From: Malacoraja senta
Lineage: Eukaryota
Direction of reading: 5' to 3'
Assembly: GCA_038087875.1 (NCBI GenBank)
Contig: CM075994.1
Coordinates: forward strand, 3,412,001 to 3,476,000
DNA: 64,000 nucleotides
Each line of letters begins with the position of its first letter. Position 1 is the first letter of the stretch. Below are positions 252-62,854 of this stretch, piece by piece. Position numbers and translations under genes: made by a program. The notes beneath the pieces are model-generated. The model was not told the origin of the DNA. It ran no database searches and worked only from the letters and a program-made list of their open reading frames with translations.

Positions 252-287
252 AAATAGAAAAACTTCGAAAAAGTTTACAGGATGCTG
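252..287 (+). CDS. micro-exon 36 nt, (E)IEKLRKSLQDA
   Basis: tttgatttcag|aaatagaaaaacttcgaaaaagtttacaggatgctg|gtgag. Confidence 0.85.
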
Positions 288-369
288 GTGAGCTATCATG
301 TCATGAATACTTTTCATCTTAAGTACTGCCCAATTTTATAACTCTTTCTGCATATATTTATGCAGGTAC

Positions 370-3300
370 TGTGACGCCTTCTTGTGGCCAAGCCACTTGT
401 TCTCGCACCTTCCATTGCCGAGCTGAAACTGGCGCGTGAGCTGGGTGGTGGAGAGATTAGACAAGAATGTGTCGAACGTTAACTTGTGTGCTATCCAACG
501 ACGGCAAGGACTTTGCTTAAATATTTACTGAATGTTCGTGAGTTCCTGGGCTGTAGTTAATAATAAAGATAAAGCTGTGTGCACAAAACTTCGACGTCCA
601 CAATGGTGACCCTGACGATCCAAAACGGTTTATTTTGGATGTTTGCCAAGTATGCAGCCGACAACACAAACCCAGCAAATTGCAGTGTACATAAAACTGC
701 CCGTGTTCTGGACATCACAGCCCCACGTGTGGTTCGAACAGGCTGAAGCCCAGTTCCACATTCGACAAATTAGGGACGACGCGACTAAATATTACTACGT
801 TGTCAAAGCGCTGGAGCAGGACACCGCCGGTCGCCTAATTTATTAGCTTCGCCAGCCACCAGCTGCAGGCATGTACGAGGTCCTCAAAATGCACCTGTTG
901 CGCACTTTTGGTCTCTGCTGCCACAACAGAGCCGCCATACTCCTTCACATGGTTGACACCGGCGCCGCAAGTCAAATGCCCGCCTTGCTGAACGGCCACG
1001 ATCCCTGCCTCCTGTTCGAACAGATTTTCCTCGAACTGATGCGTGATGACATTTGCCTGCTCCTCGCTGACGAGCATTTCACCGACCCCGGCCTGGTGGC
1101 TGCCCGTGCGGACGTGCTGTGGCAGAAACAGCAGGGTGGCGCCACCAACAGTCGAGCGTCGGCGGTGCCACCGCGGGTAAAGCGGCCGGTCGCAGCCTCC
1201 ACCGAAGGCAAAGGCAGTGAGGCGGGACACGAGCGCCGCCGGCAAAGGTACGTGGTGCTACTACCACCAAAGGTGGGGTTCCGAAGGTCACCGATGCCAA
1301 CCACCCTGCGCGCATCCCGGAAACGCCTCATCCGGCCGCCATTAGTGGCTATTGCGGCCTGCCAGAAGCATCGCCTCCTCTGCACATGGAACCGTCATTG
1401 AGGATGGCGTTTTCTCGTAGACACGGGAGCAGAGGTCAGCGTTTTGCCCCATTGGGAGCTAACAATCGTTCCGGTACGAGGGGACCTTCTCTGACCGCCG
1501 TCAACGGCAGCAACATCAGGACGAGTCCGCACGAACCCATTCACTTTCGACTCCAGTCACTTCACCTGGCCTTTCACTATTGCAGACGTCTCCCAACCGC
1601 TGCTGGTCGGCGTGAAGGGCATACGTCTCGTCCATTCTGAGACGTTCGTGTCGATCGCTTTGCGCCAGTCTGACTTGACTGCTCCGCATCTCGGCTCGGT
1701 GACTTCCTCCGATTACGAGTACGCCCGCATCTTGCCTATTTCCCCGACATCCTATCCCCCAGTTCACAACGGCCAGCCCCAAGCATGGGGTAAAGCCATA
1801 TCCCCAACACCAGACCGACACACCATGCACGTGCATGCAGGCTGCCCCCGGCCATGCTCCAACCGGCCAAGGACGAGTTCCGCAGGATGGAGGAAATGTG
1901 CATTGTGCGCCGCACAGACAGGCCTTGGGCATCTCCGTTCCACATGGTCCCCAAAGCATCTGTGGTCTAGAGACGTCACAGCGGCCGACCGGTACCCTGT
2001 CCCTCACATCCAGGAATTCACGGTCCATCTGGCCGGCGCCAAGTTTTTTTTCTTCTAAAATCGACATGGTACGTGGCTACCATAAAAATTCCAGTCTACC
2101 CGGACGGCATCCCCAAAATGGCTATCATCACCTCCTTCGAGCTCTTAATGTTCTACTGGATGCCTTTCGGCCTCAAGAATGCTGCTCAGGCTTTCATATG
2201 GCTTATGGACGGTGGGCCGCGGGCTGGATGTCCTGTTCATTTACTTTGACGACATCGTCGTCGTCAGGCGCTCTCGCCAGGAGCACCGCGCACACCTCCG
2301 GGGGGCTCTGCCAGCGGCTCAGCGAGCATAGCCTGGCCATCAATCTTGCCAAGTGTCAGTTTGACCTCACTTCCATCAGATTCCTCGGCCACCACATGGT
2401 GCGGTCCCGCTCCCGTACAAGGTTGTTCGCCAGTTTCCGGTGAGGGGACTCCAAGCGTTTGTCGGCATGGTGAATTTATATCACCGCTTCGTGCCAACAG
2501 CCGCCAGGACCATGCAAGCGCTGCTCAAAGTCCTGGACAGCAAGCACAGAGACCTCGTTTGGGACGATGCCCCCACGACAGCTTTCAACAACGCCAAAGT
2601 GGATTTTGCAAAGGCGACGATGCTGGTCCATCCACGGGTCAACGTTCCAAACGCTCTCGTGGGTGACACATCTGGCACAGCCATGGGCGAAGTGCTGCAA
2701 CAACTGATTTGTGGAACCTGGCAGCCCTTTGCCTTTTCCAGTGGTCAACTGAGACCTCCCGAGCGCTTTTGACCGGGTGCTCCTTGCGCACTCCCTGTGC
2801 ATCTGGCATTTCTGCAACTTCTTCGAGGGCATGGGTTTCACGGCTTACACCGATCACAAGCCACAAGCCGCTGTACTTTGCTTTTTCGAAGGTGTTTGAT
2901 ACCTGGTCATCCCGGCAGTAGCGTCACTTGACCTACCTCTCTGAGTACACGACTTGCGTTCAGCACATCGTTTGAAAGAGCAACCGGATGGCAGATGCGT
3001 TGTCCCGCACCACCATGAATGCCATCCGCGATTTGGCCCCATGCATCGACTTCAGGGCCCTAGCGACCGCATAGCGAGAAGATGAGGAGATGCTCACATA
3101 ACGTACCGCCATCTCAGGCCTTTTGTTGGAGGATGTGCAATTCTGGCGCGCTGATACCACGCTCTTTTGTGACGTATCTACCGGACAGCCGAGACCCATC
3201 ATCCCCGCAGTTTTACGCCGCCCGATTTTCGACATGGTTCATGGTTTGGCTCACCCTTCCATACGGGCGGCAACAGCTATCGTGGCAGCCAAGTATATGT

Positions 3301-4823
3301 GGCACGGGTTGCGCAAGCAACATGAGCGGAAATCTCTGGGGGACGGGGAGACACGTCCCCTCCATGTTTTGAGAGGTGTGGGACAACCCCACCCCCCCCC
3401 CCCCCCACACCCCCCCCCCCCACCCACAATGTTTGCTAATCCGGATTTTGAAATTCGGTTAAAAAAAGATCCATTAAAAATCTCCGATTTCCGCAAGAGA
3501 GTGGGGGTGGGACTGATGATCGAGGGCGCCGATTGGACGAGAGAGACGTCGGTCAGCACGCAAGGGGTGTGGGACATGATGATTCAGCGCGATGATTGTA
3601 GGAGGAAGGTGTCAGTCAGAGGCGGAAGTAGAGGGTGGGTGCGACTGCGTGAACCGCTGTCAAAAGTCGAATGACCAACATCACCTCAAGGCGCCCTTCC
3701 AGGATTACGCCCTGCCACACCGGCGTTTCGACCATAACCACGGGACCTCTGTCGATACCGTTTGACCTCTGCATCCATCCAGACGTGTCACCCACTGTCT
3801 CACCATCGTGGTCCGATTTAAGAGACGACCGGAAGCCGTCCCGCTCTTGTATACCTCCGCTGCGACGTATGCACGTGCCTTCACTGCCGTCTGGATCGCC
3901 TATTTTGGTGTGCCGGTGGACATCTCTTCCGGCAGAGGTGCGCAGTGCACCTCTGAGTTGTGGTCAGCAGTGTTCCGGCTGCTTGACCCTCAGCTGCACT
4001 ACACTACGGCCTACCACCCGCAAGTCAACGGCCGAATAGAACGTTTTCACCGTAACCCGAGGCCATATTTAAAGGCACAGTTCACGAGCCCGGACTGGGT
4101 GGACGAATTGCCGTGGGTCATGCTGGGCATACGCACTGCCCCGAAGGAGGACCTGGCAACTTCCTCGGCCGAACTGATGTTCAGCGCTCTGGTAAAGGTC
4201 CACGGGGTTTACATCCCGGAGGCAGATGGACATCAGAAACCACGCACGACCATCCTGACGCGCCTCGAGGGATAGGTGTGCACGCTCTCTCCCGTCCCGA
4301 CGTCCTGCCACGGACTTACCCTCACGCACGTCCCACCCGCCCTCACAGACTGTCAGTAGGTGTTCCTTCGCCGCGATTCTTACCGTACGCCACTGCAAAT
4401 GTCATTCGAGGGACTGGCATCTCGTCTTTTGTAATCAACATGGGCGGAAGGCACGAAACTGTTTCTATGGACAGTCTTAAGTCGGCACATTTGGGCATGG
4501 ATGCGCCAGTGCAGGTTGCACATCCCCGCCGTAGAGGGCGCCCACAGTTTCGACCGCATCTGCCCTTAACTCTGCCGTTTGTGACCCCGAGCACGGGGAG
4601 GTGTATAGGAGATCAGGTCGCCTCGTTCGTGGACCTACTCGCCTCCATTACTCCGGTTCTGTGTGTGTGGGGGGGGGGTGTTATGTGGCGCCATCTTGTG
4701 GCCAAGCCACTTGTTCTAGGATCATCCATCGTCGACCTGAAACTTTCGCCTGAGCTGGGTGGTGGGGAGATTAGAGAATAAGGAGTCGAAGGTTAACTGT
4801 TGTGCTATCGAACGACGGCAAGG
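370..4823 (+). mobile_element. Degenerate Ty3/Gypsy LTR retrotransposon
   Basis: 5' LTR TGT..CA 370-602; tRNA-Trp-like PBS TGGTGACCCTGACG at 604; gag KLPVFWTSQPHVWFEQAEAQF; protease FLVDTGAEVSVLP near 1409; RT DRYPVPHI and YFDD; integrase TTAYHPQVNGRIERFHR; G-run PPT then truncated 3' LTR from 4684; many stops and frameshifts. Confidence 0.92.
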
Positions 4824-6390: not shown

Positions 6391-9300
6391 ATACATAGAT
6401 ACATAGATACATAGAAAATAGGTGCAGGAGTAGGCCATTCGGCCCTTCGAGCCTGTACCGCCATTCAATATGATCATGGCTGATCATCCAACTCAGTATC
6501 CCGTACCTGCTTTCTCTCCATACCCCCTGATCCCTTTAGCCACAAGGGCCACATCTAACTCCCTCTTAAATATAGCCAATGAACTGGCCTCAACTACCCT
6601 CTGTGGCAGAGAGTTCCAGAGATTCACCACTCTCTGTGTGAAAAAGTTTTTCCTCATCTCGGTCTTAAAGGATTTCCCCCTTATCCTTAAGCTGTGACCC
6701 CTTGTCATGGACTTCCCCAACATCGGGAACAATCTTCCTGCATCTAGCCTGTCTAACCCCATATGAATTTTGTACGTTTCTATAAGATCCCCTCTCAATC
6801 TCCTAAATTCTAGCGAGTATAAGCCAAGTCTATCCAGTCTTTCTTCATATGAAAGTCCTGACATCCCAGGAATCAGTCTGGTGAACCTTCTCTGCACTCC
6901 CTCAATGGCTATAATGTCCTTCCTCAGATTTGGAGACCAAAACTGTACGCAATACTCCAGGTGTGGTCTCACCAAGACCCTGTACAACTGCAGTAGAACC
7001 TCCCTGCTCCTATACTCAAATCCTCTTGCTATGAAGGCCAACATACCATTCGCTTTCTTCACTGCCTGCTGCACCTGCATGCCTACTTTCAATGACTGGT
7101 GTACCATGACACCCAGGTCTCGCTGCACCTCCCCATTTCCTAATCGGCCACCATTTAGACAATAGTCTGCCTTCCCGTTTTTGCCACCAAAGTGGATAAC
7201 CTCACATTTATCCACATTATACTGCATCTGCCAAACATTTGCCCACTCACCCAGCCTATCCAAGTCACCTTGCAGTCTCCTAGCATCCTCCTCACAGCTA
7301 ACACTGCCCCCCAGCTTAGTGTCATCCGCAAACTTGGAGATGTTGCTTTCAATTCCCTCGTCCAGATCATTAATATAAATTGTAAATAGCTGGGGTCCCA
7401 GCACTGAGCCTTGCGGTACCCCACTAGTCACTGCCTGCCATTGTGAAAAGGACCCGTTTACTCCTACTCTTTGCTTCCTGTTTACCAGCCAGTTCTCTAT
7501 CCAATACCGTGTGATTTAAGTTTGTATCCTAATCTCTTATGTGGTACCTTGTCGAAAGCCTTCTGAAAGTCCAGATACAACACATCCACTGGTTCTCCCC
7601 TATCCACTCTACTAGTTACATCCTCGAAAAATTCTGTAAGATTCGTCAGACACGATTTACCGTTCGTAAATCCATGCTGACTTTGTCCAATGATTTCACC
7701 ACTTTCCAAATGTGCTGTTATCCCATCTTTAATAACTGACTCTAGCAGTTTCCCCACTACCGATGTTAGACTAACTGGTCTGTAATTCCCCGTTTTCTCT
7801 CTCCCTTCTTAAAAAGTGAGGTTACGTTTGCTACCCTCCAATCCTCAGGAACTACGCCAGAATCTAAAGAATTTTGAAAAATTATCACTAATGCATCTAC
7901 TATATCTGGAGCTACTTCCTTAAGTACTCTGGGATGCAGCCTATCTGGCCCTGGTGATTTATCGGCCTTTAATCCATTCAATTTACCCAACACCACTTCC
8001 CGACTAACCTGGATTTCACTCAGTTCCTCCATTTCCTTTGACCCGCGGCGCCCTGCTATTTCCGGCAGATTATTTATGTCTTCCTTAGTGAAGACGGAAC
8101 CAAAGTAGATATTCAATTGGTCCGCCATATCCTTGTTCCCCATGATCAATTCACCTGTTTCTGACTGCAAGGGACCTACATTTGTTTTAACTAATCTCTT
8201 TCTCTTCACATATCTATAAAAACTTTTGCAGTCAGTTTTTATGTTCCCTGCCAGTTTCCTTTCATAATTTATTTTCCCTTTCCTAATTAAGCCCTTTGTC
8301 CTCCTCTGCTGGTCTCTGAATTTCTCCCAGTCCTCTGGTATGCTGCTTTTTCTGGCTAATTTGTACGCAACATCTTTTGCTTTGATACTATCCCTGAGTT
8401 CCCTTGTTATCCACGGATGCACTACCTTCCCTGATTTATTCTTTTGCCAAACTGGGATGAACATTTTTTGTAGTTCATCCATGCAGTCTTTAAATGCCTT
8501 CCATTGCATATCCACCGTCAACCCTTTTAGAACTAATTGCCAGTCAATCTTGGCCAATTCACGTCTCATACCCTCAAAGTTACCTTTCTTTAAGTTCAGA
8601 ACCGTTGTTTCTGAATTAACAATGTCACTCTCCATCCTAATGAAGAACTCAACCATATTATGGTCACTCTTGCCCAAGGGGGCACGCACAACAAGTCTGC
8701 TAACTAACCCTTCCTCATTACTCAATACCCAGTCTAGAATAGCCTGCTCTCTCGTTGGTTCCTCTATATGTTGGTTTAGATAACTATCCCTCATACATTC
8801 CAAGTAATCCTCTTCCTCAGCACCCCTGCCAATTTGATTCACCCAATCTATATGTAGATTGAAGTCACCCATTATAACTGTTTTGCCTTTGTTGCACGCA
8901 TTTCTAATTTCCTGTTTGATGCCATCCCCAACTTCACTACTACTGCTAGGTGGCCTGTACACAACACCCACCAGCGTTTTCTGCCCCTTAGTGTTTCGTA
9001 GCTCCACCCATACCGATTCCACATCCTCCAAGCTAATGTCCTTCCTTTGAACTGCGTTAATCTCCTCTCTAACCAGCAACGCTACCCCACCTCCTTTACC
9101 TTTCTCTCTATCCCTCCTGAATATTGAATATCCCTGGATGTTCAGCTCCCAGCCTTGGTCACCCTGGAGCCATGTCTCCGTGATCCCAACTATATCATAA
9201 TCATTAATTGCTATCTGCACGTTCAACTCATCGACCTTATTACGAATGCTCCTTGCATTGAGACACAAAGCCTTCAGGCTTGTTTTTACAACGCTCTTAC

Positions 9301-9998
9301 CCCTTATACAATTATGTTGGAAAGTGGCTCTTTTTGATTTTTGCCCTGGATTTGTCTGCCTGCCACTTTTACTTTTCACCTTGCTACCTATTGCTTCCGC
9401 CCGCATTTTGCACCCCTCTGTTTCTCTGCTCACCCATTTAAGAACCCCACCACCTCTTATACTCTGTTTATTATTGTTTTCTTCTTTCCCCCTACATGTT
9501 GGGTCTGAGTGCTTTCCTTCTCTGCCTCCTGCCTCACACACTGTCTAATAGCATTCTCTATTTGAGTCCCTCCCCCCAACCATTCTAGTTTAAAGTCTCC
9601 CCAGTAGCCTTTGCACATCTCCCCGCCAGGATATCGGTCCCCTTCAGGTTCAAGTGCAACCCATCCTTTTTGTACAGGTCGAACCTTCCACAAAAGAGGT
9701 CCCAATGATCCAGAAATTTGAATCCCTGCCTTCTGCACCAGTCCTTCAGCCACGCATTTATCCTCCACCTCGCTCCATTCCTACTCTCACTGTCGCGTGG
9801 CACAGGCAGTAATCCCGAGATTGTTACCTTTGCTGTCCTTCTCTTTAACTCCCCTCCTAACTCCCTAAATTCTCCTTTCAGGACCTCTTCTCTTTTTTTA
9901 CCTATGTCATTGGTACCTATATGTATCACGACTTCGGGCTCCTCTCCCTGCCCTTTCAGGATGTCTTGGACACGTTGAGACACATCACAGACCCTGGC
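6391..9998 (-). mobile_element. Young 5'-truncated CR1 LINE (partial esterase ORF1; ORF2 with small deletions near 7502 and 7800)
   Basis: APE motifs NARSIRNK, GDFN, SDH; RT DFQKAFDKV, GVPQGSVLGP, FADD; (TCTATGTA)n tail. Confidence 0.97.
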
Positions 9999-11484
9999 TT
10001 CGCCCAACACCTCCGCTCGGTCCGCCACCTCCAGTTTAAATTTCATTTAGTATATTTATGGAGGACCAGGAAACCAGAAGCAAGTGTTACTCCAGGGAGT
10101 TACTCCAGATCCAGGGTCAGGGAGTGATTCTGCGTTGGTTTTCAGCGATCGCGGCGAGGCGGCGACCCGACGCCAATGGCGGCCATGGCAGTGCGCATGC
10201 GCAGGGCGGCCGATGATGCGCTGGCCGTGGTTGTGCGCAGGTGCAGGGGTAGGATGCGCTGGCCGTAGCAGTGCGCATGTGAAAGGCGGCCTGCCTTGCC
10301 GGCGGATGAGAAGCGAGCGGTGAGCGGAGACCCGGCGGCCCGGACACGGATACGGATGGCGTGCGGAGACGGAGAGTTGAAAGACAGAGAGATGGACAGG
10401 GGGACCGGCCCAGAGTTGAACGGCAAGTGTCCTGCCTTGGCCGCAGGCCGCCTAGATTTCGAGGCCCTAGGCTTCTGCCTATGAAGCCTAGTGGTAAATC
10501 CGGCTCTGTGAGACCCCCCTAGATATTGAGGCCCTAAGCTTAAGCTTGTCAAGCTTATACGTAAATCCGGCCCTGTCTAGGTGACTTATATAACTTAAAA
10601 TATTTCAGCTGAACAAGCATCTTCTCCGTAGTGATAGCGACTCCGGTAACTTCTTCCCCCTGATATTATTGGATCTCAGTTACGTTGCTGGTAGCTTCCG
10701 CTGTGTACTAGCGGCCCCTACACCGACCCCTGTGAAAAGAACATATTAATTAATTTGTCATTTCTTTATTCATCATTGTTACTACCCCAGCGTAATTTTC
10801 CAGCGATTCAATGTCCACTCCAGCCGCTCTTATAATCTTTAAATATCCGAAGAAACATTTGCTATCCTCTTTTACATTATTGGCTACAAGGATTTCATTT
10901 TTTTCATATTTAATCTTTCCTTCCCTTATTTGCATCTTAGTAACCGTCTGCTGGTTTCTAAAGGCTTCCCAGTCCTTTAGCTTCCCACTATTATTGCCAA
11001 TATTGTATGCATTGTCTCTTAGTTTTATGCTGCCTTTGGCTTTCTTTGGCAGCCACTGTCGTCTCATTCTCCCCTTGTCATCTTTCTTCCTCTTTGGGAT
11101 GACAAGACCCGGCGTCTTCCCCACACTCTTAGCATTGCCGCTCCACCGTCATTCCTGATGGGGGCCCTTTACAATTAACTTTGACCAGCCATTCCTACAT
11201 GCTTGTATATTTACCTTTACTCATTATTACATTACATATGATTTATTACAGATACATATGATTTCATCTTCTCCCTCTAAAACTGTGTTGAAGTCAAATA
11301 AAGTTGAATTCTGCCATACTATGGTCACTGCCTCCGAGGGGTTCATTTTCCTTAAGCTCCGTATCAAATCCGGTTCGTTACACAACACCAAATCTAGAAT
11401 TGCTTTTCCTCGCGTGTGGTCGACTACAAGCTGCTGTTAGAAGCCATATCGTAGGCACTTTAGAAATTCCTCTCTTGGGATAGA

Positions 11485-13027: not shown

Positions 13028-13054
13028 AAAGCGTCTTGCAAAAAAAAGATCAAG
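13028..13054 (+). CDS. micro-exon 27 nt, ESVLQKKDQ
   Basis: ctccattgcag|aaagcgtcttgcaaaaaaaagatcaag|gtgaa. Confidence 0.85.
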
Positions 13055-13331: not shown

Positions 13332-13367
13332 AAATAGAAAAACTGCGAAAAAGTTTACAGGATGCTG
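13332..13367 (+). CDS. micro-exon 36 nt, EIEKLRKSLQDA (paralog of 252-287)
   Basis: tttgttttcag|aaatagaaaaactgcgaaaaagtttacaggatgctg|gtgag; differs from 252-287 by one synonymous change (CTT/CTG). Confidence 0.87.
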
Positions 13368-18975: not shown

Positions 18976-19061
18976 CAGGTATCCTGAAGTCTGTACTTTG
19001 CAGTGACAATAATATTATAGTAAACGTTGTTGGTATATTTAATTAATACATTTTTTTTCAG

Positions 19062-19088
19062 AATTTAACATCCGTAAAAAGGAATCAG
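19062..19088 (+). CDS. micro-exon 27 nt, EFNIRKKES
   Basis: ttttttttcag|aatttaacatccgtaaaaaggaatcag|gtaat. Confidence 0.85.
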
Positions 19089-19622
19089 GTAATCGGGATG
19101 AAATTATTACTCCACTTGATGTCATTGCTAATGTTGAAATTCGTGTGTGCAATGGCAGGGAAATCACATTGCATTCAAAATCATCTTATATTACCTGTTT
19201 GGGTAATAATCCCGTGCCCAGTGAAAATAGTACAGGTGCATTACGAAAACGCACAGAAAATTGATTTGCATACTATGAAAATAGGCTTGCATACTTTGCA
19301 GCCTATAATAAATATGTTAGCATGTTGGGAAGTAGGAAAAAAGCTGTGTAAAACCAAAATCTGCGTTCGTAGAATTAGAAGTGATGAATCACAATGAAAC
19401 CGGAATAATAGAAACGAGAGAACAGTAGCAACATGAAAATAAAATAAGGATTTGATAAAAGAATATAAATATGATAAATTGCCTGCTGAAAGCAAGTGAA
19501 ATAATGAACAAAGGCTGGCTTATTAAGATGGATTGTCTGACAATGAAAAGCGACCTCTAAAGTTAAAAAAGGTAACCATACCAATAATTTTCGATGACTT
19601 ATTATTACTAATATTATTCCAG

Positions 19623-19649
19623 ACATGTCTGATCATTTGAAAACCGATG
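19623..19649 (+). CDS. micro-exon 27 nt, DMSDHLKTD
   Basis: attattccag|acatgtctgatcatttgaaaaccgatg|gtgagt. Confidence 0.85.
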
Positions 19650-20158
19650 GTGAGTAACGTGATATGTTGAGTAGAAGTAAAGTAAGAAATTGTATCAACG
19701 TTATTTTGCTCTGAAAACACAACTCTGCAATTGTAATTTCTCGCATTTTAATCACTTATTTGAATCAATTTCCACGTCCTGTCAATGTTGTTACCTACAC
19801 AGTTACTCAATTAACTCCTTTCGTTTTACCCTGGTTAACTACAATAAACCAATTTTCAAAATCTAATTTCCCCTTCCCTGTGCATCTTCGAATGTTCAGT
19901 TTCTACGTTCATAATACATGGCGAAACAAAGTATTACTTTCACATTAGCAATGAAATGATTATGCTTAAATAGACTGTGGTTATTTTTTTACATTTATCA
20001 CCGCACCCCCTACGTTGCAGAAGACAACATTTATTAAATACGGAAAACACACACGCCATAAAAAAGCAGTATGCCCTTTTCTTTGCATTGAAGTCACCTT
20101 CAAAAAAATCAGAAACTAGAACTTTATTGTCAATACAAAAAATGTGTTGATCATACAG

Positions 20159-20185
20159 ACCAGAAGCTTAAAGAAGCACAATCGG
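20159..20185 (+). CDS. micro-exon 27 nt, DQKLKEAQS
   Basis: tcatacag|accagaagcttaaagaagcacaatcgg|gtaagt. Confidence 0.82.
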
Positions 20186-20959: not shown

Positions 20960-20995
20960 AACTCCTGCAATTAACGGCAATTCGAGCGGATCTCG
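20960..20995 (+). CDS. micro-exon 36 nt, ELLQLTAIRADL
   Basis: tatttccag|aactcctgcaattaacggcaattcgagcggatctcg|gtgag. Confidence 0.85.
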
Positions 20996-21110
20996 GTGAG
21001 CCAATGTTATATATTTTGTGCAATATAAAACTGTCAGTAAAGACGTTAGATTTTTCTTGTTATCGAAGTATTTTGACGGATTTTTCAAAAGATCCTTGTG
21101 GTTGAAGGAA

Positions 21111-21446
21111 ACATACATAGATACATAGAAAATAGGTGCAGGAGTAGGCCATTCGGCCCTTCGAGCCTGCACCGCCATTCAATATGATCATGGCTGATCA
21201 TCCAACTCAGTATCCCGTACCGGCCTTCTCTCCATACCCCCTGATCCCCTTAGCCACAAGGGCCACATCTAACTCCCTCTTAAATATAGCCAATGAACTG
21301 GCCTCAACTACCCTCTGTGGCAGAGAGTTCCAGAGATTCACCACTCTCTGTGTGAAAAAGGTTTTCCTCATCTCGGTCTTAAAGGATTTCCCCCTTATCC
21401 TTAAGCTGTGACCCCTTGTCCTGGACTTCCCCAACATCGGGAACAT
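21111..21446 (-). mobile_element. Young CR1 3' fragment
   Basis: Near-identical to the 3' end of the 38251-42008 copy. Confidence 0.95.
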
Positions 21447-22303: not shown

Positions 22304-22330
22304 AGAAATTGCTACTTATAAAGAATGAAG
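22304..22330 (+). CDS. micro-exon 27 nt, EKLLLIKNE
   Basis: tccattctcacag|agaaattgctacttataaagaatgaag|gtaaa. Confidence 0.83.
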
Positions 22331-23687: not shown

Positions 23688-23714
23688 AAGTTAAAGAACT
23701 AAAGAAAAATAATG
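23688..23714 (+). CDS. micro-exon 27 nt, EVKELKKNN
   Basis: ttttatttgttggcag|aagttaaagaactaaagaaaaataatg|gtatgt. Confidence 0.83.
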
Positions 23715-24910: not shown

Positions 24911-24934
24911 AATTGAAAGTAAACTGCATACCAG
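24911..24934 (+). CDS. micro-exon 24 nt, ELKVNCIP
   Basis: tcttctttttcag|aattgaaagtaaactgcataccag|gtaac; fills third slot of a four-exon module. Confidence 0.75.
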
Positions 24935-25660: not shown

Positions 25661-25696
25661 ACCGAGAAAAGCTCGAAGCTATTCAAAAAGATATCG
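25661..25696 (+). CDS. micro-exon 36 nt, DREKLEAIQKDI
   Basis: tattttccag|accgagaaaagctcgaagctattcaaaaagatatcg|gtaagt. Confidence 0.87.
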
Positions 25697-25847: not shown

Positions 25848-25874
25848 TGCAGCTGTTAGAGCTGAAAGATAAAG
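25848..25874 (+). CDS. micro-exon 27 nt, VQLLELKDK
   Basis: tgttcacag|tgcagctgttagagctgaaagataaag|gtaaa. Confidence 0.83.
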
Positions 25875-26496: not shown

Positions 26497-26523
26497 AACT
26501 TGAAGAAATTCGTCGACAGAAGA
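26497..26523 (+). CDS. micro-exon 27 nt, ELEEIRRQK
   Basis: gtttctttag|aacttgaagaaattcgtcgacagaaga|gtaag. Confidence 0.83.
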
Positions 26524-28199: not shown

Positions 28200-28235
28200 A
28201 GGTTCACACACTTAAGTCCACGTTGGAGATAGCAA
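28200..28235 (+). CDS. micro-exon 36 nt, EVHTLKSTLEIA
   Basis: gcatttcag|aggttcacacacttaagtccacgttggagatagcaa|gtaag. Confidence 0.82.
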
Positions 28236-31196: not shown

Positions 31197-31223
31197 AGAA
31201 CGATTTGCAACTGAAAGATGAAG
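31197..31223 (+). CDS. micro-exon 27 nt, KNDLQLKDE
   Basis: ttttattccaaaag|agaacgatttgcaactgaaagatgaag|gtatc; weaker AAG acceptor, peptide similar to VQLLELKDK. Confidence 0.75.
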
Positions 31224-31340: not shown

Positions 31341-31367
31341 AACTTCTGAAACATGTCAAGAGTGATG
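31341..31367 (+). CDS. micro-exon 27 nt, ELLKHVKSD
   Basis: ttttcaccccag|aacttctgaaacatgtcaagagtgatg|gtgagt; similar to DMSDHLKTD. Confidence 0.85.
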
Positions 31368-37602: not shown

Positions 37603-37629
37603 AGGAACAGATACGTGAAACCCAGCAGG
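37603..37629 (+). CDS. micro-exon 27 nt, EEQIRETQQ
   Basis: tttttattctcgcag|aggaacagatacgtgaaacccagcagg|gtaaa. Confidence 0.83.
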
Positions 37630-38250: not shown

Positions 38251-41200
38251 TAGGGTAAGAAGGGTAAGGAAAAGAAGAGGAGGGCAATATTAATAGGGGA
38301 CTCTATAGTTAGGGGGTCAGACAGGCGATTCTGTGGACGCAGTCGGGAGACCCGGATGGTAGTTTGCCTCCCTGGTGCCAGGGTCTGTGATGTGTCCCAA
38401 CGTGTCCAAGACATCCTGAAAGGGCAGGGAGAGGAGCCCGAGGTCGTGATACATATAGGTACCAATGACATAGGTAAAAAAAAGAGAAGAGGTCCTGAAA
38501 GGAGAATTTAGGGAGTTAGGAGGGGAGTTAAAGAGAAGGACAGCAAAGGTAACAATCTCGGGATTACTGCCTGTACCACGCGACAGTGAGAGTAGGAATG
38601 GAGCGAGGTGGAGGATGAATGCGTGGCTGAAGGACTGGTGCAGAAGGCAGGGATTCAAATTTCTGGATCATTGGGACTTCTTTTGTGGAAGGTTCGACCT
38701 GTACAAAAAGGATGGGTTGCACTTGAACCTGAGGGGGACCGATATCCTGGCGGGGAGATCTGCAAAGGCTACTGGGGAGACTTTAAACTAGAATGGTTGG
38801 GGGGAGGGACTCAAATAGAGAATGCTATTAGACAGTGTGTGAGGCAGGAGGCAGAGAAGGAAAGCACTCAGACCCAACATGTAGGGGGGAAAGAAGAAAA
38901 CAATAATAAACAGAGAATAAGAGGTGGTGGGGTTCTTAAATGGATGAGCAGAGAAACAGAGGGGTGTAAAATGCGGGCGGAAGCAATAGGTAGCAAGGTG
39001 AAAGGTAAAAGTGGCAGGCAGACAAATCCAGGACAAAAATCAAAAAGAGCCACTTTTCAACATAATTGTATAAGGGGTAAGAGCGTTGTAAAAACAAGTC
39101 TGAAGGCTTTGTGTCTCAATGCAAGGAGCATTCGTAATAAGGTGGATGAGTTGAACGTGCAGATAGCAATTAATGATTATGATATAGTTGGGATCACGGA
39201 GACATGGCTCCAAGGTGACCAAGGCTGGGAGCTGAACATCCAGGGATATTCAATATTCAGGAGGGATAGAGAGAAAGGAAAAGGAGGTGGGGTGGCGTTG
39301 CTGGTTAGAGAGGAGATTAACGCAGTGGAAAGGAAGGACATTAGCTTGGAGGATGTGGAATCGGTATGGGTAGAGCTGCGAAACACTAAGGGGCAGAAAA
39401 CGCTGGTGGGCGTTGTGTACAGGCCACCTAGCAGTAGTAGTGAAGTTGGGGATGGCATCAAACAGGAAATTAGAAATGCGTGCAACAAAGGCAAAACAGT
39501 TATAATGGGTGACTTCAATCTACATATAGATTGGGTGAATCAAATTGGCAGGGGTGCTGAGGAAGAGGATTTCTTGGAATGTATGAGGGATAGTTATCTA
39601 AACCAACATGTAGAGGAACCAACGAGAGAGCAGGCTATTCTAGACTGGGTATTGAGTAATGAGGAAGGGTTAGTTAGCAGACTTGTTGTGCGTGCCCCCT
39701 TGGGCAAGAGTGATCATAATATGGTTGAGTTCTTCATTAGGATGGAGAGTGACATTGTTAATTCAGAAACAACGGTTCTGAACTTAAAGAAAGGTAACTT
39801 TGAGGGTATGAGACATGAATTGGCCAAGATTGACTGGCAATTAGTTCTAAAAGGGTTGACGGTGGATATGCAATGGAAGGCATTTAAAGACTGCATGGAT
39901 GAACTACAAAAATTGTTCATCCCAGTTTGGCAAAAGAATAAATCAAGGAAGGTAGTGCATCCGTGGATAACAAGGGAAATCAGGGATAGTATCAAAGCAA
40001 AAGATGATGCGTACAAATTAGCCAGAAAAAGCAGCATACCAGAGGACTGGGAGAAATTCAGAGACCAGCAGAGGAGGACAAAGGGCTTAATTAGGAAAGG
40101 GAAAATAGATTATGAAAGGAAACTGGCAGGGAACATAAAAACTGACTGCAAAAGTTTTTATAGATATGTGAAGAGAAAGAGATTAGTTAAATCAAATGTA
40201 GGTCCCTTGCAGTCAGAAACAGGTGAATTGATCATGGGGAACAAGGATATGGCAGACCAATTGAATAACTACTTTGGTTCCGTCTTCACTAAGGAAGACA
40301 TAAATAATCTGCCGGAAATAGCAGGGGGCCGCGGGTCAAAGGAGATGGAGGAACTGAGTGAAATCCAGGTTAGTCGGGAAGTGGTGTTGGGTAAATTGAA
40401 TGGATTAAAGGCCGATAAATCACCAGGGCCAGATAGGCTGCATCCCAGAGTACTTAAGGAAGTAGCTCCAGAAATAGTGGATGCATTAGTGATAATTTTT
40501 CAAAACTCTTTAGATTCTGGAGTAGTTCCTGAGGATTGGAGGGTAGCAAACGTAACCCCACTTTTTAAGAAGGGAGGGAGAGAGAAAACGGGGAATTACA
40601 GACCAGTTAGTCTAACATCGGTAGTGGGGAAACTGCTAGAGTCAGTTATTAAAGATGGGATAGCAGCACATTTGGAAAGTGGTGAAATCATTGGACAAAG
40701 TCAGCATGGATTTACGAAAGGTAAATCGTGTCTGACGAATCTTATAGAATTTTTCGAGGATGTAACTAGTAGAGTGGATAGGGGAGAACCAGTGGATGTG
40801 TTGTATCTGGACTTTCAGAAGGCTTTCGACAAGGTACCACATAAGAGATTAGGATACAAACTTAAATCACACGGTATTGGGGGTTCAGTATTGATGTGGA
40901 TAGAGAACTGGCTGGCAAACAGGTAGCAAAGAGTAGGAGTAAACGGGTCCTTTTCACAATGGCAGGTAGTGACTAGTGGGGTACCACAAGGCTCAGTGCT
41001 GGGACCCCAGCTATTTACAATTTATATTAATGATCTGGACGAGGGAATTGAAAGCAACATCTCCAAGTTTGCGGATGACACTAAGCTGGGGGGCAGTGTT
41101 AGCTGTGAGGAGGATGCTAGGAGACTGCAAGGTGACTTGGATAGGCTGGGTGAGTGGGCAAATGTTTGGCAGATGCAGTATAATGTGGATAAATGTGAGG

Positions 41201-42008
41201 TTATCCACTTTGGTAGCAAAAACGGGAAGGCAGACTATTATCTAAATGGTGGCCGATTAGGAAATGGGGAGATGCAGCGAGACCTGGGTGTCATGGTACA
41301 CCAGTCATTGAAAGTAGGCATGCAGGTGCAGCAGGCAGTGAAGAAAGCGAATGGTATGTTGGCCTTCATAGCAAGAGGATTTGAGTATAGGAGCAGTGAG
41401 GTTCTACTGCAGTTGTACAGGGTCTTGGTGAGACCACACCTGGAGTATTGCGTACAGTTTTGGTCTCCAAATCTGAGGAAGGACATTATAGCCATAGAGG
41501 GAGTGCAGAGAAGGTTCACCAGACTGATTCCTGGGATGTCAGGACTTTCATATGAAGAAAGACTGGATAGACTTGGCTTATACTCGCTAGAATTTAGGAG
41601 ATTGAGAGGGGATCTTATAGAAACGTACAAGATTCTTATGGGGTTGGACAGGCTAGATGCAGGAAGATTGTTCCCGATGTTGGGGAAGTCCAGGACAAGG
41701 GGTCACAGCTTAAGGATAAGGGGAAAATCCTTTAAGACCGAGATGAGGAAAAACTTTTTCACACAGAGAGTGGTGAATCTCTGGAACTCTCTGCCACAGA
41801 GGGTAGTTGAGGCCAGTTCATTGGCTATATTTAAGAGGGAATTAGATGTGGCCCTTGTGGCTAAAGGGATCAGGGGGTATGGAGAGAAGGCAGGTACGGG
41901 ATACTGAGTTGGATGATCAGCCATGATCGTATTGAATGGCGGTGCAGGCTCGAAGGGCCGAATGGCCTACTCCTGCACCTAATTTCTATGTATCTATGTA
42001 TCTATGTA
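38251..42008 (+). mobile_element. Young CR1 LINE with partial SGNH-esterase ORF1 and complete-length ORF2
   Basis: ORF1 LIGDSIVRG..CLPGARV..HIGTND..DGLHL (frameshift in A-run near 38480); ORF2 APE and RT; (TCTATGTA)n tail. Confidence 0.97.
38971..41907 (+). pseudogene. CR1 ORF2 (endonuclease/reverse transcriptase) with a single in-frame stop
   Basis: ORFs 38608-40926 and 40969-41907 share a frame; TAG at 40924-40926 where the minus-strand copy has AAG (NRKQRV). Start codon uncertain. Confidence 0.9.
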
Positions 42009-42676: not shown

Positions 42677-42712
42677 AACGTAAGAAAATAGAAGCGATTC
42701 GACTGAACGTTG
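42677..42712 (+). CDS. micro-exon 36 nt, ERKKIEAIRLNV
   Basis: atatttcctag|aacgtaagaaaatagaagcgattcgactgaacgttg|gtaag; similar to DREKLEAIQKDI. Confidence 0.85.
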
Positions 42713-45252: not shown

Positions 45253-45279
45253 AGGAACTACTTCGTCGGCAAGAATCAG
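45253..45279 (+). CDS. micro-exon 27 nt, EELLRRQES
   Basis: ctctaatattgtag|aggaactacttcgtcggcaagaatcag|gtgag. Confidence 0.85.
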
Positions 45280-46659: not shown

Positions 46660-46695
46660 AACTGTCGAAATTACGAAAACAGCTGAGTGAAGCAG
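46660..46695 (+). CDS. micro-exon 36 nt, ELSKLRKQLSEA
   Basis: cttgcacttcag|aactgtcgaaattacgaaaacagctgagtgaagcag|gtaaa; similar to EIEKLRKSLQDA. Confidence 0.87.
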
Positions 46696-48833: not shown

Positions 48834-48860
48834 AAGAGGAAGGGACCAAAAAAGATGAAG
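48834..48860 (+). CDS. micro-exon 27 nt, EEEGTKKDE
   Basis: cttcactttgcag|aagaggaagggaccaaaaaagatgaag|gtaaa. Confidence 0.85.
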
Positions 48861-48874
48861 GTAAAGCATTTTGG

Positions 48875-50504: not shown

Positions 50505-50540
50505 AGTCCAAAAGAATGAAAAAAGCACTTCAAGATCTAG
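50505..50540 (+). CDS. micro-exon 36 nt, ESKRMKKALQDL
   Basis: ttccatttttgtag|agtccaaaagaatgaaaaaagcacttcaagatctag|gtaaa. Confidence 0.85.
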
Positions 50541-56012: not shown

Positions 56013-56372
56013 TGAATTTCCATTTCAAGCAGGGTGTAAGGCCACCAAATTCAAATCCATTTTCCTACCATTTCAAGCAGAATGCAAGGCTACCAATTTC
56101 AAGTGCAGTTTCTTACCACTTCAAGCAGGGTGCAAGGCCACCAAATTCAAGTGCAGTTTCATACCACTTCAAGCAGGGTGCAAGGGCACCAAATTCAGGT
56201 GGAGATACCTACCTCTTCAAGCAGGGTGCAAGGCCTCCAAATTCAAGTGCAGTTTCATACCATTTCAAGCAGGGTGCAAAGCCACCAAATTCAAATGCAG
56301 TTTCATACCATTTCATGCAAGATACAAAGCCACCACATTCAATTGCAGTTTTATACCATTTCAAGCAGAGTG
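56013..56372. repeat. 48-bp minisatellite, about 7 copies
   Basis: Unit ccatttcaagcagggtgcaaggccaccaaattcaagtgcagtttcata. Confidence 0.9.
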
Positions 56373-56754: not shown

Positions 56755-56985
56755 TCCAACCATTTGCAATGCTTTTTACTTCAAACCAAACCCCCACCAA
56801 CAATTTGCAGTGCTTTTACTTCAACCCAAATCCCCACCAACCATTTGCAGTGCTTTTACTTCAACCCAAACCCCCACCAACCATTTGCAGTGCTTTTACT
56901 TCAAACCAAATCCCCACCAACCATTTGCAGTGCTTTTACCTCAAGCCGAACGCCCACCAACCATATGCAGTGCTTTTACTTCAAG
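56755..56985. repeat. 40-bp minisatellite, about 5-6 copies
   Basis: Unit ccaccaaccatttgcagtgcttttacttcaacccaaaccc. Confidence 0.9.
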
Positions 56986-57627: not shown

Positions 57628-58718
<1,091 letters not shown>

Positions 58719-59623
58719 TCTATATGTAACTAAAACTATGATCTTGTTAGCTTCCAGTTTTGCTTTTTTTCCCGGTAAAAACGGCATACGAGAGCGCTAC
58801 GATGTTTCCCACCTTACTCACCATTCTCCTGTGCTGCAATTGCAACACGCTTTGTTCCGATTCTTTACAAGAAATTAAGGTTTTAAAAAATCTTTAAACC
58901 GCGCATGCGCATATTGGTCTCTTCTCCCGTCCGTCACCGCCAAGCAGATTGGTCTCCTCTCCTCTCTGTCACCGCCAGGCCGGGACGGAGACACCGCTTC
59001 TCGCACCATCGCCGCATTGATTGACCGCGTCCGCTGTCAGTCATCGGCGGCGCCGTCCTCGCCCGGCGATGAATGACAGGAGAGGAGACCAATCTGCGTG
59101 AACGCAGCCCGCAGCGAGGAGAATATTGCAATGTGAAAGGTAAAGGCGGCGCCCGCTCGCCGGCTCCGGGGACGGGGAGAGACTTCGCGACCATCCCGGG
59201 CCTGGGCGCTGAGGCTGGCGGCGGCGGCGGCGGCGCCGCCTGAGGCGACGATCCGGGACCAGGGCGTTGAGGTTGGCTCTCCGGGTCCGCTGTGGGGGAG
59301 GTGGGTGATAGAGAGATAGCAGGGGGTGGGGAGGGGAGTGGAGTTATTGAGGGAGGGAGTGAGTGACTGTGGGTAGAGGAAAGGAGGGGTCAGGTCAGGG
59401 GGGCGACTGGGTGAGGGGAGGAGGAGAGGGGGAAGAAGAAGGAGGGTGAAGAGGAGGTGGAGGAAGTGCTGGGAATGAGCAAAAATGAGCCGCGCCTGCG
59501 CAGTTAGTGGATTTGCGTGAGTGGTGGAATATTGCGTTGGGAGATCGGGTTGCGTTGGGGAACGGCTGAGTGGTGGAATATTGCGTTGGGGGAGCAGACC
59601 TAACGGGTCTGCACTTAGTCTAG
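58719..59623 (+). mobile_element. Non-autonomous Helitron related to 50888-57356
   Basis: 5' TCTATATGTAACTAAAACTATGATCTTG; 3' hairpin GCAGACC..GGTCTGC then ACTTAGTCTAG; shared subterminal GGAATATTGCGTTGGG. Confidence 0.78.
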
Positions 59624-61614: not shown

Positions 61615-61641
61615 AGGATAAACTCCGTGACAAGGGAGCAG
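61615..61641 (+). CDS. micro-exon 27 nt, EDKLRDKGA
   Basis: tatttgtgcag|aggataaactccgtgacaagggagcag|gtaaa. Confidence 0.82.
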
Positions 61642-61779
61642 GTAAACATTACAAATTCGATTTAGTTCATCTCCGATAATATATTATATGACCGTTCTTT
61701 GTTCAATGCAGGCTAATTCAGTGCACTGTCGTAGAATATATTATACCACCGATTAACTTTTCTTTATTTTGCTTCTCAG

Positions 61780-61791
61780 ATGCCAGTTGCG
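61780..61791 (+). CDS. micro-exon 12 nt, DASC
   Basis: ctttattttgcttctcag|atgccagttgcg|gtaagt; strong pyrimidine tract and consensus donor, phase 1-1. Confidence 0.7.
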
Positions 61792-62827
61792 GTAAGTATT
61801 ATGATGAACCTATGGAAGTAAGAAGAAATGCTCAACTGTGCCGAATGTGCGGTTAATAAGGATAATAGAGCAACTGTCATGAAATGCCTTTGCATTTGTA
61901 TTTGAGGTTCGTTGTTTGGACGCCAAATACACATATTGCATGGGGGCATCATTCAGGATTTTTCCATTATTTCTTATTTTCTTAAATTATGGGTAATTGG
62001 AGTCACGCAGCCTCGAAACCGACACGTTGTGCGCTACCTCTCGAACTATGCTAATCTCACTTTTCAGCATCGGACTGTAACATTCTACGACATGGTTCTC
62101 AGCTGTTCTTCTAAAACCATTTATAACGTTGTGTTAAACGTTAAATTTACACCACCTCCTTTGGTAATATGTTCCACATGGAAACCATCCTGTGGACGGT
62201 GTATTTCTCTCGTACATCTCTTGTTCATCATCTTACACCCCGCATCACCTCTGCTAAGAAGACATTTGGCTTGCTTTCATACCTGCGTATGTCCCTTATA
62301 ACTTTCTATTACACAGTCACGTTTTTCTCAGCCTTCTGTGGTCCACGGAAAACACACGCATATTGATCAACCGTACCTGAGCAGCACTTCAGACAACGTT
62401 TGGGTGAATATGCTCCTACCTAAAATTAACGCCATCATATTCCTCCTATCGCGTGGTGTCGAGAAATGCACAGTGGAATATGACCTACGGCTGAACTAAT
62501 GTTGTATATTCTCATAAAATACCACCTCCACCCCCTGGGATAATCATTTGGGATAATCATAAATTTTATTCCAATGCGTTCACCGGAGCTGCAGAGACAA
62601 TTCAAGCTGTGGACAAACAGGAATTCTACACACTTGCGCACCGCAACTGCCTGAATCATACATCTCATAGCTTTAAAGTATGCAGTACCTTTAATTATAT
62701 TAATATATTTGAATGCATCCGAAGACAATTCTACTCAGATTTCATACCGAATAGACGGCTCGCTGGCATTTGCCGCTCGTTTTAAAAGTAATATTGTAAT
62801 ATTGTAATGCGATTCTCTCTGGTGCAG

Positions 62828-62854
62828 CACTGAAACTGAAGCGAAAGATTTTTG
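62828..62854 (+). CDS. micro-exon 27 nt, ALKLKRKIF
   Basis: ttctctctggtgcag|cactgaaactgaagcgaaagatttttg|gtgag. Confidence 0.75.

What the first reader, a model, noticed from the sequence alone, without database searches (positions are those of the whole stretch)
252..62854. Hidden gene of about 26 symmetric micro-exons encoding a long coiled coil
Seen: 26 exon-like units of 12-36 nt, all on + strand, all multiples of 3 and phase 1-1, with AG acceptors and GT donors (one GC). They join stop-free into about 252 aa with heptad hydrophobics (in EIEKLRKSLQDAESVLQKKDQEIEKLRKSLQDA, positions I2, L5, L9, A12, L16, K19, I23, L26, L30, A33). Coding sequence is about 1% of the span. Established: chicken BG genes and butyrophilins encode cytoplasmic heptads in tiny phase-1 exons, mostly 21 nt. 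Inference: this is an analogous rod built from 27/36-nt exons. Any exon subset can be skipped in frame, so splicing could tune rod length like a molecular ruler. Gene predictors are likely to miss or fragment it.
Basis: partly seen in the sequence, partly recalled or inferred. Interest (0 to 1): 0.92.

Follow-up and report, generated by a model that had tools for sequence, protein, structure and literature searches.

The report
Giant vertebrate gene of coiled-coil micro-exons
The window holds about a third of a real but very dilute gene, built from dozens of 27- and 36-base exons that together encode a long helical rod; the layout is rare and easily missed, and the protein's family and function are still unknown.

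Summary
I can support 24 micro-exons on the + strand between 252 and 62854: 8 of 36 nt, 15 of 27 nt and 1 of 24 nt. All are phase 1-1 and AG/GT-bounded, and together they give 717 nt, or 239 residues, which is 1.15% of the span. The minus strand and 100 dinucleotide shuffles show no such excess.

The decisive evidence is a collinear paralogous array about 660 kb downstream on the same contig. In 34 of 34 exon pairs it keeps length, AG/GT and open frame. dN/dS is 0.35 in the predicted frame, against 1.07 and 1.20 in the other two frames.

The array runs well beyond the window, from about -108 kb to +124 kb, with roughly 60-70 exons. Joined in genomic order, the exons give a K/E/L-rich peptide whose heptad continuity beats both residue shuffles and exon-order shuffles.

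The BG/butyrophilin reading is supported only as an architectural analogy. I found no Ig, TM, B30.2 or lectin exon from -140 to +164 kb, and no MHC class I match on this contig. No RNA runs exist, so splicing and any 'ruler' function are untested. The spliced peptide could not be searched against protein databases here, so the family is unknown.

This scan has already reported heptad-per-exon arrays in other genomes (21 and 42 nt, phase 0).

The parts
252..287 (+). 36-nt phase 1-1 micro-exon (class A); recent tandem copy of 13332-13367
   Evidence: Same peptide as 13332-13367, one synonymous difference. Lies in a 3.4-kb tandem duplication.
13028..13054 (+). 27-nt micro-exon (class B)
   Evidence: The paralog keeps AG/GT, length and open frame.
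13332..13367 (+). 36-nt micro-exon (class A)
   Evidence: 8 of 36 nt differ from the paralog; by Nei-Gojobori counting this is 6.5 synonymous and 1.5 non-synonymous differences, and the only residue change is Arg to Lys.
19062..19088 (+). 27-nt micro-exon
19623..19649 (+). 27-nt micro-exon (His/Lys/Asp sub-class)
   Evidence: Peptide identical in the paralog.
20159..20185 (+). 27-nt micro-exon
20960..20995 (+). 36-nt micro-exon (class A), found only through the paralog comparison
22304..22330 (+). 27-nt micro-exon
23688..23714 (+). 27-nt micro-exon
24911..24934 (+). 24-nt unit, conserved but less coil-like (has Cys and Pro); weaker candidate
25661..25696 (+). 36-nt micro-exon (class A)
25848..25874 (+). 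27-nt micro-exon, 151-nt intron after 25696
26497..26523 (+). 27-nt micro-exon (ends in A, not G)
28200..28235 (+). 36-nt micro-exon (class A; ends in A)
31197..31223 (+). 27-nt micro-exon (AAG acceptor)
31341..31367 (+). 27-nt micro-exon (His/Lys/Asp sub-class), 117-nt intron before it
37603..37629 (+). 27-nt micro-exon
42677..42712 (+). 36-nt micro-exon (class A)
   Evidence: Peptide identical in the paralog.
45253..45279 (+). 27-nt micro-exon
46660..46695 (+). 36-nt micro-exon (class A)
48834..48860 (+). 27-nt micro-exon
50505..50540 (+). 36-nt micro-exon (class A)
61615..61641 (+). 27-nt micro-exon
62828..62854 (+).
38474..41904 (+). LINE insertion in an intron (GDSL-esterase ORF1, endonuclease, reverse transcriptase); absent at the collinear place in the paralog
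6496..10046 (-). LINE copy of the same kind in the 12.7-kb first intron, opposite orientation

Best explanation
The window is the middle part of a real protein-coding gene of a jawed vertebrate. The gene consists, as far as I can see, only of symmetric phase 1-1 micro-exons: mostly 27 nt, about a quarter 36 nt, and a few 24 nt. There are about 60-70 of them spread over about 230 kb, separated by introns of 0.1 to 13 kb that are full of LINE and LTR debris.

Nearly every exon ends in G and begins with A plus a second base. Each junction therefore makes Glu or Asp, and no junction can make a stop.

The product is a Lys/Glu/Leu-rich alpha-helical rod with heptad-type hydrophobic spacing, most likely a dimeric or trimeric coiled coil several hundred residues long. 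A 36-nt exon plus a 27-nt exon makes exactly three heptads, with a conserved Lys at one core position. Extra 27-nt exons (9 residues) introduce register shifts.

The array grew by tandem duplication of exon groups. One 3.4-kb duplication is recent. The whole gene was also duplicated once, giving a paralog 660 kb downstream, and both copies have stayed under purifying selection.

Shown: the exons, their frame, the selection on them, the composition, the heptad continuity and the duplications.

Inferred:
- The exons are spliced serially into one mRNA.
- Their purine-rich sequence (65% purine) helps exon definition.
- The rod acts as a structural spacer or tether.

The protein family is unknown.
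For: Strand and length specificity:
- 27-nt units number 27 (+) against 0 (-), and 36-nt units 10 against 1, with no composition filter.
- Shuffles give 9.1+-3.3 and 7.4+-2.8, against 27 and 25 observed in the window.

Paralog test:
- 14 of 14 exons chosen from the window alone keep exact length, AG and GT in the paralog.
- All 19 hits of 27 or 36 nt between 13 and 73 kb reappear in the conserved list.
- Over 34 pairs (1014 nt), identity is 83.6% and AG/GT is kept in 34 of 34. dN/dS is 0.35 with 0 stop codons in the predicted frame. The other two frames give 1.07 and 1.20, with 36 and 33 stop-bearing codons.
- The first 402 exon nt have 0 gaps, where about 11 gap openings are expected from the intron rate (P about 1e-5). 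Exon identity is 79%, against 75% for aligned intron.

Protein features:
- 30 exons joined in genomic order give 295 aa with no stop.
- Composition is K 17%, E 16%, L 15%, G 0.7%, P 0.3%.
- The heptad score is 4.29, against 2.44+-0.28 for residue shuffles and 3.24+-0.31 for exon-order shuffles.

Other:
- Extent of the array.
- Tandem duplication.
- The sequence itself is confirmed by DNA contigs of two samples.
Against: - No RNA evidence exists at all. No RNA run holds the locus, and the two runs laid are DNA. Serial splicing, or even expression, is therefore not shown.
- Neither end of the gene was found. There is no start exon, stop exon or any known domain in 304 kb.
- Heptad regularity is only moderate. 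The lag-7 autocorrelation is 0.18, with several register changes. No established coiled-coil predictor or structure prediction could be run on the spliced peptide.
- Part of the paralog statistics is by construction. The exons added were picked for open frame and kept splice sites. The frame contrast in dN/dS and the first 14 exons are not affected by this.
- Exons outside 13-73 kb and 119-124 kb are predicted from one copy only.
Confidence: 0.8

Rival explanations
1. BG/butyrophilin-type gene. The array is the cytoplasmic heptad tail of a type I Ig-superfamily membrane protein, with IgV and TM exons further upstream and possibly a B30.2 exon downstream.
For: - The logic matches chicken BG: many tiny exons that split codons the same way and encode a coiled-coil tail, 13-36 exons per gene (PMC4046983, passages).
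- The genome is rich in B30.2 exons, with at least 696 candidates, many of them on this contig at 9.8-10.8 Mb.
- The 5' end of the gene was not reached.
Against: - No V-set/Ig, SPRY or PRY hit appeared among + strand ORFs from -140 to +164 kb.
- No TM-like exon of compatible phase was found.
- Exon sizes are 27 and 36 nt, not 21.
- Introns are kilobases long, not the compact BG layout (the BG layout is recalled, not checked here).
- 0 of 88 MHC class I exon matches are on this contig.
- The nearest listed SPRY exon is 1.08 Mb away (only 150 of 696 candidates were scored).
Confidence: 0.12
2. Extracellular stalk. The array encodes the coiled-coil neck of a type II receptor or of a secreted oligomeric protein, of the kind seen in CD23, collectins or scavenger receptors. 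The globular head would be encoded beyond the region examined.
For: - Phase 1-1 symmetric exons are typical of shuffled extracellular modules (established knowledge, recalled).
- The 36+27-nt pair equals 21 residues, the unit of the CD23 stalk repeat (recalled).
- Paralog collinearity continues at least 6 kb past the last micro-exon, to window 130153. More exons may therefore follow.
Against: - No Lectin_C, collagen, SRCR or other head-domain hit was found in + strand ORFs of 38 aa or more from +120 to +144 kb, or of about 78 aa or more up to +164 kb.
- No TM exon was found upstream.
- Cys is almost absent and no N-glycosylation pattern was looked for.
Confidence: 0.1
3. Cassette or mutually exclusive exon cluster. 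The units are real exons, but only a subset enters any one mRNA, so the gene encodes a family of shorter rods rather than one rod of about 650 residues.
For: - All units are symmetric, and every one of 900 ordered exon pairs gives a sense codon at the junction.
- Runs of several 27-nt exons between 36-nt exons break the 21-residue unit.
Against: - Genomic order gives better heptad continuity than 200 random exon orders (4.29 against 3.24+-0.31), as expected if neighbours are joined.
- All exons tested are under similar constraint.
- There is no RNA data either way.
Confidence: 0.15
4. Not a gene. The units are chance AG...GT segments, or pieces of a repeat or transposon.
For: Several look-alike units did turn out to be transposon-derived and occur in both orientations. 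Examples are the 33-nt unit at 6928 and a 24-nt unit found three times upstream.
Against: - The strand, length and frame specificity.
- The supported exons are single-copy apart from the paralog.
- Purifying selection is frame-specific.
- The exons have no indels while the introns have many.
Confidence: 0.02

Closest known systems
Chicken BG genes (butyrophilin/B7 family), cytoplasmic tail exons
   Same: - A long alpha-helical, heptad-based tail encoded by a tandem array of tiny exons that all split codons the same way.
- The array grew by exon duplication.
- Exon number differs between paralogs (PMC4046983, passages read).
   Different: - BG exons are 21 nt, sometimes 24, which is one heptad each, with 13-36 per gene. 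Here the exons are 27 and 36 nt (9 and 12 residues), number about 60-70, and fit the heptad only in pairs.
- BG genes have signal, IgV and TM exons just upstream. None was found here within 304 kb.
- The introns here are kilobases long and full of transposons.
Mammalian butyrophilins (BTN1A1, BTN3A etc.), juxtamembrane heptad exons
   Same: A few phase-1 micro-exons encoding cytoplasmic heptads (PMC4046983 introduction).
   Different: Butyrophilins have only a few such exons, followed by a B30.2 exon. No B30.2 exon was found up to +164 kb.
Collagen and elastin genes (arrays of small symmetric exons)
   Same: - Dozens of short exons, each a multiple of 3, all in one phase, each encoding a slice of a fibrous repeat.
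- Elastin exons are all phase 1-1 with long introns (recalled, not checked here).
   Different: - The product here is a charged coiled coil with 0.7% Gly, not Gly-X-Y or hydrophobic cross-linking domains.
- The exons are shorter than the 45/54-nt collagen unit.
CD23 (FCER2) stalk repeats
   Same: A 21-residue (three-heptad) coiled-coil unit repeated by exon duplication (recalled).
   Different: In CD23 each unit is one 63-nt exon and there are 3-4 of them. Here the unit is split into 36+27 nt, and no lectin head or TM exon was found.
Heptad-per-exon arrays found earlier by this scan in other genomes (e1-7221451, e1-7154532)
   Same: Coiled-coil repeats cut so that each small exon carries a whole number of repeat units. 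RNA confirmed splicing in both cases, according to those notes.
   Different: Those are compact genes of a fungus and a protist, with phase-0 exons of 21 or 42 nt, 7-10 exons and short introns. This is a vertebrate gene with phase-1 exons that are not multiples of a heptad, and it is two orders of magnitude more dilute.

Membership tests
Chicken BG / butyrophilin (B7-like IgSF with heptad tail) | IgV-like extracellular exon upstream of the heptad exons | tested here: not met
   No V-set or other Ig Pfam hit was found among + strand ORFs of about 79 aa or more from -140 kb to the window, at E 0.001-0.01. Caveat: the 5' end of the gene was not reached.
Chicken BG / butyrophilin (B7-like IgSF with heptad tail) | Transmembrane exon directly before the heptad exons | tested here: not met
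   A hydropathy scan of AG...GT exons ending in phase 1 over 304 kb gave 0 hits at strict settings. At loose settings it gave 9, none convincing in phase, place and splice scores.
Chicken BG / butyrophilin (B7-like IgSF with heptad tail) | Tail exons of 21 (24) nt, one heptad each, split codons | tested here: not met
   Split codons and symmetry are met. Size is not: 0 units of 21 nt passed on the + strand, against 27 of 27 nt and 10 of 36 nt.
Butyrophilin proper | B30.2 (PRY-SPRY) exon after the heptad exons | tested here: not met
   No SPRY or PRY hit was found in ORFs up to +164 kb. The nearest listed SPRY exon on the contig is at C18:4559228 (150 of 696 candidates scored).
Chicken BG | Linkage to the MHC | tested here: not met
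   0 of 88 MHC_I exon matches lie on contig C18. All are on other, mostly small, contigs. Class II was not searched.
Canonical coiled coil | Heptad a/d hydrophobic pattern over long stretches, helix-favouring composition, few Gly/Pro | tested here: met
   Home-made register score is 4.29, against 2.44+-0.28 in residue shuffles. Register runs reach about 60 residues. G is 0.7% and P 0.3%. No standard predictor or fold was run.
Type II C-type lectin receptors with coiled-coil neck (CD23-like) | C-type lectin domain exons downstream of the neck | tested here: not met
   No Lectin_C hit was found in 144 + strand ORFs of 38-85 aa from +120 to +144 kb, or in longer ORFs up to +164 kb.
Schistosome micro-exon genes (MEGs) | Small secreted proteins: signal-peptide exon, then symmetric exons of 6-36 nt; trematode-specific | not tested
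   Only the symmetric micro-exon layout is shared. The host here is a jawed vertebrate and the product is a long helical rod. No signal-peptide exon was identified.
Collagen | Gly-X-Y triplets in 45/54-nt phase-0 exons | tested here: not met
   Gly is 0.7% of residues and the exons are phase 1.

The most novel reading that the evidence does not exclude
A vertebrate gene pair uses 9- and 12-residue cassette exons as a combinatorial kit for a coiled-coil rod. Every exon can be joined to every other one without a stop, always through Glu or Asp. Exon choice could therefore set both the length of the rod and the position of its register shifts (stutters), producing tissue-specific spacers from a locus that is 99% intron. 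It would also be the longest known run of consecutive micro-exons spliced across multi-kilobase introns, which is a stress test for exon definition.
Probability: 0.15. Interest if true: 0.8.

Novelty: new variant of a known kind. Interest (0 to 1): 0.55.

Why it matters
If transcribed as predicted, this is an extreme gene architecture. It would need about 60-70 consecutive exons of 27-36 nt to be recognised across introns of up to 13 kb, in a locus that is about 1% coding. Standard gene finders and short-read aligners would probably miss most of it (an inference, not tested here).

It extends the principle of a fibrous repeat cut into symmetric mini-exons, known from BG tails, collagens and elastin, to a coiled coil whose exons fit the heptad only in pairs. 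It shows such an array kept under selection in two paralogs while transposons inflated the introns.

Practically, it flags a gene pair that is probably unannotated or fragmented. It also gives a concrete set of junctions for testing micro-exon splicing and the evolution of coiled-coil length.

Tried and rejected
- **RNA evidence:** no RNA holder is listed for window 19000-28999. The two holders are DNA contigs and show no spliced form.
- **Whole-genome file:** not available.
- **Flanks and paralog:** As a result the 5' end, the 3' terminal exons and most of the paralog (4113-4157 kb, and beyond 4162.8 kb) were not read.
- **Genome-wide pattern search for the 27-nt exon class:** 376 matches against 167 for the reversed control. 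The list was cut before contig C18 and was dominated by a repeat, so it was uninformative. A longer pattern was not accepted.
- **Long DNA queries to map the paralog:** swamped by transposon copies.
- **CpG-island search for a promoter:** many CpG-rich transposon pieces and no usable signal.
- **Transposon-derived look-alike units:** removed after self-BLAST. They include a 33-nt unit at 6928, a 24-nt unit found three times upstream, and 21-nt units at +93 and +95 kb.
- **42-nt candidate at 23194-23235 and 24-nt unit at +120492:** not conserved in the paralog.
- **Literature searches:** searches for arrays of 27- or 36-nt exons or micro-exon coiled coils found nothing relevant. This covers only the held open-access library.
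- **Earlier notes on this genome or look-alike stretches:** none.
- **Homology search, coiled-coil prediction by standard tools and structure prediction of the spliced peptide:** not done, because the tools take only unjoined sequence.
- **First pattern test:** miscounted positions and was redone.

Full report
**What is there**

It is the join of three AG/GT-bounded units at 252-287, 13028-13054 and 13332-13367 on the + strand, each preceded by a pyrimidine tract.

The window lies at C18:3412001-3476000 of a 1.94-Gb genome. That genome carries at least 696 candidate B30.2 exons and 88 MHC class I exon matches, so the host is a jawed vertebrate. I did not try to name it.

**Is it more than chance?**

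- In the window, YAG-N27-GTRA segments open in phase 1-1 number 27 on +, 10 on -, and 9.1+-3.3 (max 18) in 100 dinucleotide-preserving shuffles.
- For N36 the counts are 25, 10 and 7.4+-2.8 (max 15).
- The charged, coil-like subset is 7 and 6 on +, 0 and 0 on -, and 0.2 and 0.17 in shuffles.
- In 184 kb (window plus 60 kb each side), with simple splice-site scoring and no composition filter, 27-nt units number 27 (+) against 0 (-), 36-nt units 10 against 1, and 24-nt units 8 against 0. Lengths 21, 30, 33 and 39 show no bias.
- A plain pattern with no frame requirement gives 41 against 12 (27 nt) and 27 against 10 (36 nt). Control lengths give 10-12 on both strands.

**Extent**

In 304 kb, the + strand has 1-8 scoring units in every 20-kb bin from -140 kb to +140 kb and none from +140 to +164 kb. 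The minus strand has 1 in all. Convincing coil-like units run from about -108 kb to +124 kb. The window therefore holds roughly a third of an array of about 60-70 units.

Some look-alikes are transposon pieces found in both orientations, and I removed them.

**The decisive test: a paralog**

DNA searches found a second, collinear copy on the same strand about 660 kb downstream.

- Window 13.0 kb corresponds to C18:4071208, 25.5 kb to 4087159, 119.6 kb to 4157904, and 130.2 kb to 4183856.
- I read 48 kb of it.
- The two loci align at 62-75% identity, introns included, with different transposon insertions.
- All 14 exons that I had picked from the window alone keep exact length, AG and GT in the paralog.
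- All 19 hits of 27 or 36 nt that lie between 13 and 73 kb reappear among the conserved, gap-free, open AG...GT blocks. That list also revealed one exon I had missed (20960-20995).
- The first 402 exon nt contain 0 gaps, where the intron gap-opening rate (229 in 8189 aligned nt) predicts about 11 (P about 1e-5).
- Over 34 exon pairs (1014 nt), identity is 83.6% and AG/GT is kept in 34 of 34. In the predicted frame dN/dS is 0.35 with no stop. The other two frames give 1.07 and 1.20, with 36 and 33 stop-bearing codons.

Pairs added were selected for open frame and kept splice sites, so those two figures are partly by construction. The frame contrast and the first 14 pairs are not. Both copies have therefore been protein-coding, in this frame, for most of the time since they separated.

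**Anatomy**

In the window I support 24 exons: 8 of 36 nt, 15 of 27 nt and 1 weaker 24-nt unit.

- Together they are 717 nt, or 239 residues, which is 1.15% of 252-62854.
- Introns range from 117 to 12,740 nt, with a median of 1357.
- The exons are 65% purine, against 49% for the window.
- Of 30 exons examined, 28 end in G and 27 begin with A. Junction codons are therefore Glu or Asp, and none of the 900 ordered exon pairs would create a stop.

The 36-nt class has hydrophobic residues at inner positions 1, 4, 8 and 11. The 27-nt class typically has Leu at position 3, Lys at 6 and Asp/Glu/Asn at 7. One sub-class has His at 4, Lys at 6 and Asp at 8.

A 36+27 pair is 21 residues, or three heptads, with Lys at one d position. 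Between successive 36-nt exons there are one to four 27-nt exons, so the register shifts.

A 3.4-kb segment carrying a 27+36 pair was tandemly duplicated recently (80-86% identity). This produced the exon at 252 and a 24-nt variant with an in-frame 3-nt deletion just upstream of the window.

The introns carry LINE and LTR fragments. The LINE at 38.5-41.9 kb is absent at the collinear place in the paralog.

DNA contigs from two samples confirm the single-copy stretches that hold the exons, with few differences. None of the six differences in single-copy sequence falls in an exon, but that is too few to interpret.

**The product**

Thirty paralog-supported exons joined in genomic order give 295 residues without a stop.

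- Composition is K 17%, E 16%, L 15%, D 8%, Q 7%, R 6%, I 6%, G 0.7% and P 0.3%.
- A simple best-register heptad score is 4.29. Residue shuffles give 2.44+-0.28 and 200 random exon orders give 3.24+-0.31. Constant-register runs reach about 60 residues.
- Raw periodicity is only moderate: lag-7 autocorrelation is 0.18, and the strongest spectral peak is at 3.5.

I read this as a long coiled-coil rod with stutters. The fact that genomic order beats random order argues that neighbouring exons are joined.

**What it is not shown to be**

- Pfam scans of ORFs on the + strand (and of the longer ones on the minus strand) from -140 to +164 kb found only transposon domains. The one exception is an intronless two-RRM ORF on the minus strand at about +157.6 kb. 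No Ig, SPRY/PRY, lectin or other host domain appeared.
- No TM-like exon of compatible phase was found.
- No MHC class I match lies on this contig.
- The BG/butyrophilin reading therefore stands only as an analogy of layout. BG tails use 13-36 exons of 21 (24) nt behind IgV and TM exons (PMC4046983, passages read).
- Paralog collinearity continues at least 6 kb beyond the last micro-exon, so further exons may exist. I could not read the paralog there.

**What is missing**

- No RNA run holds the locus, so expression, serial splicing and exon skipping are untested.
It may therefore belong to an annotated family that I cannot name.
- Literature searches for such arrays found nothing apart from the BG papers. 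They cover only the held library.
- This scan had earlier noted heptad-per-exon arrays in a fungus and a protist, with 21 and 42 nt, phase 0, and RNA confirmation according to those notes. I did not check those notes.

**Verdict**

The coiled-coil reading is well supported. The BG/butyrophilin membership is not. The 'ruler by exon skipping' idea is compatible with the frame design but not with the heptad arithmetic of single exons, and it is untested.

I rate it a new variant of a known kind, of moderate to good interest. The main risk is that a homology search would place it in a known family.

Noticed in passing
window 38474-41904 (+) and 6496-10046 (-); also L030 (C18:4098187-4100477): A young LINE family with a GDSL-esterase ORF1 plus endonuclease and reverse transcriptase. 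The window copy has ORFs of 776 and 326 aa. A copy in the paralog locus is 97% identical but sits at a non-collinear place, so the family was active after the gene duplication.
   Followed up: partly
L019:3639-4202 (-), i.e. window about +157.6 kb: An intronless 188-aa ORF with two RRM domains on the opposite strand, 34 kb past the last micro-exon. It may be a retrogene or a neighbouring gene.
   Followed up: no
whole genome (G000): Very large B30.2 repertoire: 696 candidate SPRY exons, of which 150 were scored and all passed the cut-off. There is a cluster on C18 at 9.8-10.8 Mb. There are also 88 MHC class I exon matches, nearly all on small unplaced contigs.
   Followed up: no
window 56020-56372, 56756-56984, 58326-58723: Three tandem arrays inside one intron: a 48-nt unit x7.4, a 40-nt unit x5.7, and a (TCTA)n run of about 99 copies.
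   Followed up: no
window -140 kb to +164 kb: Mean CpG observed/expected is 0.68 at 43% G+C. This is high for a vertebrate, and most CpG-rich patches coincide with transposon pieces.
   Followed up: no
L015:6346-6432 (window 120346-120432) and C18:4158704: Reading through the donor of the 27-nt exon at 120346 stays open for 87 nt in both paralogs, with similar peptides. This may be a chance effect of a short conserved intron, or an alternative longer exon.
   Followed up: no
window 27080-27100 and 27192-27218: Two further AG...GT blocks (21 and 27 nt) are conserved, gap-free and open in both paralogs, but they are Thr/Ser-rich rather than coil-like. They may be extra exons or chance.
   Followed up: partly
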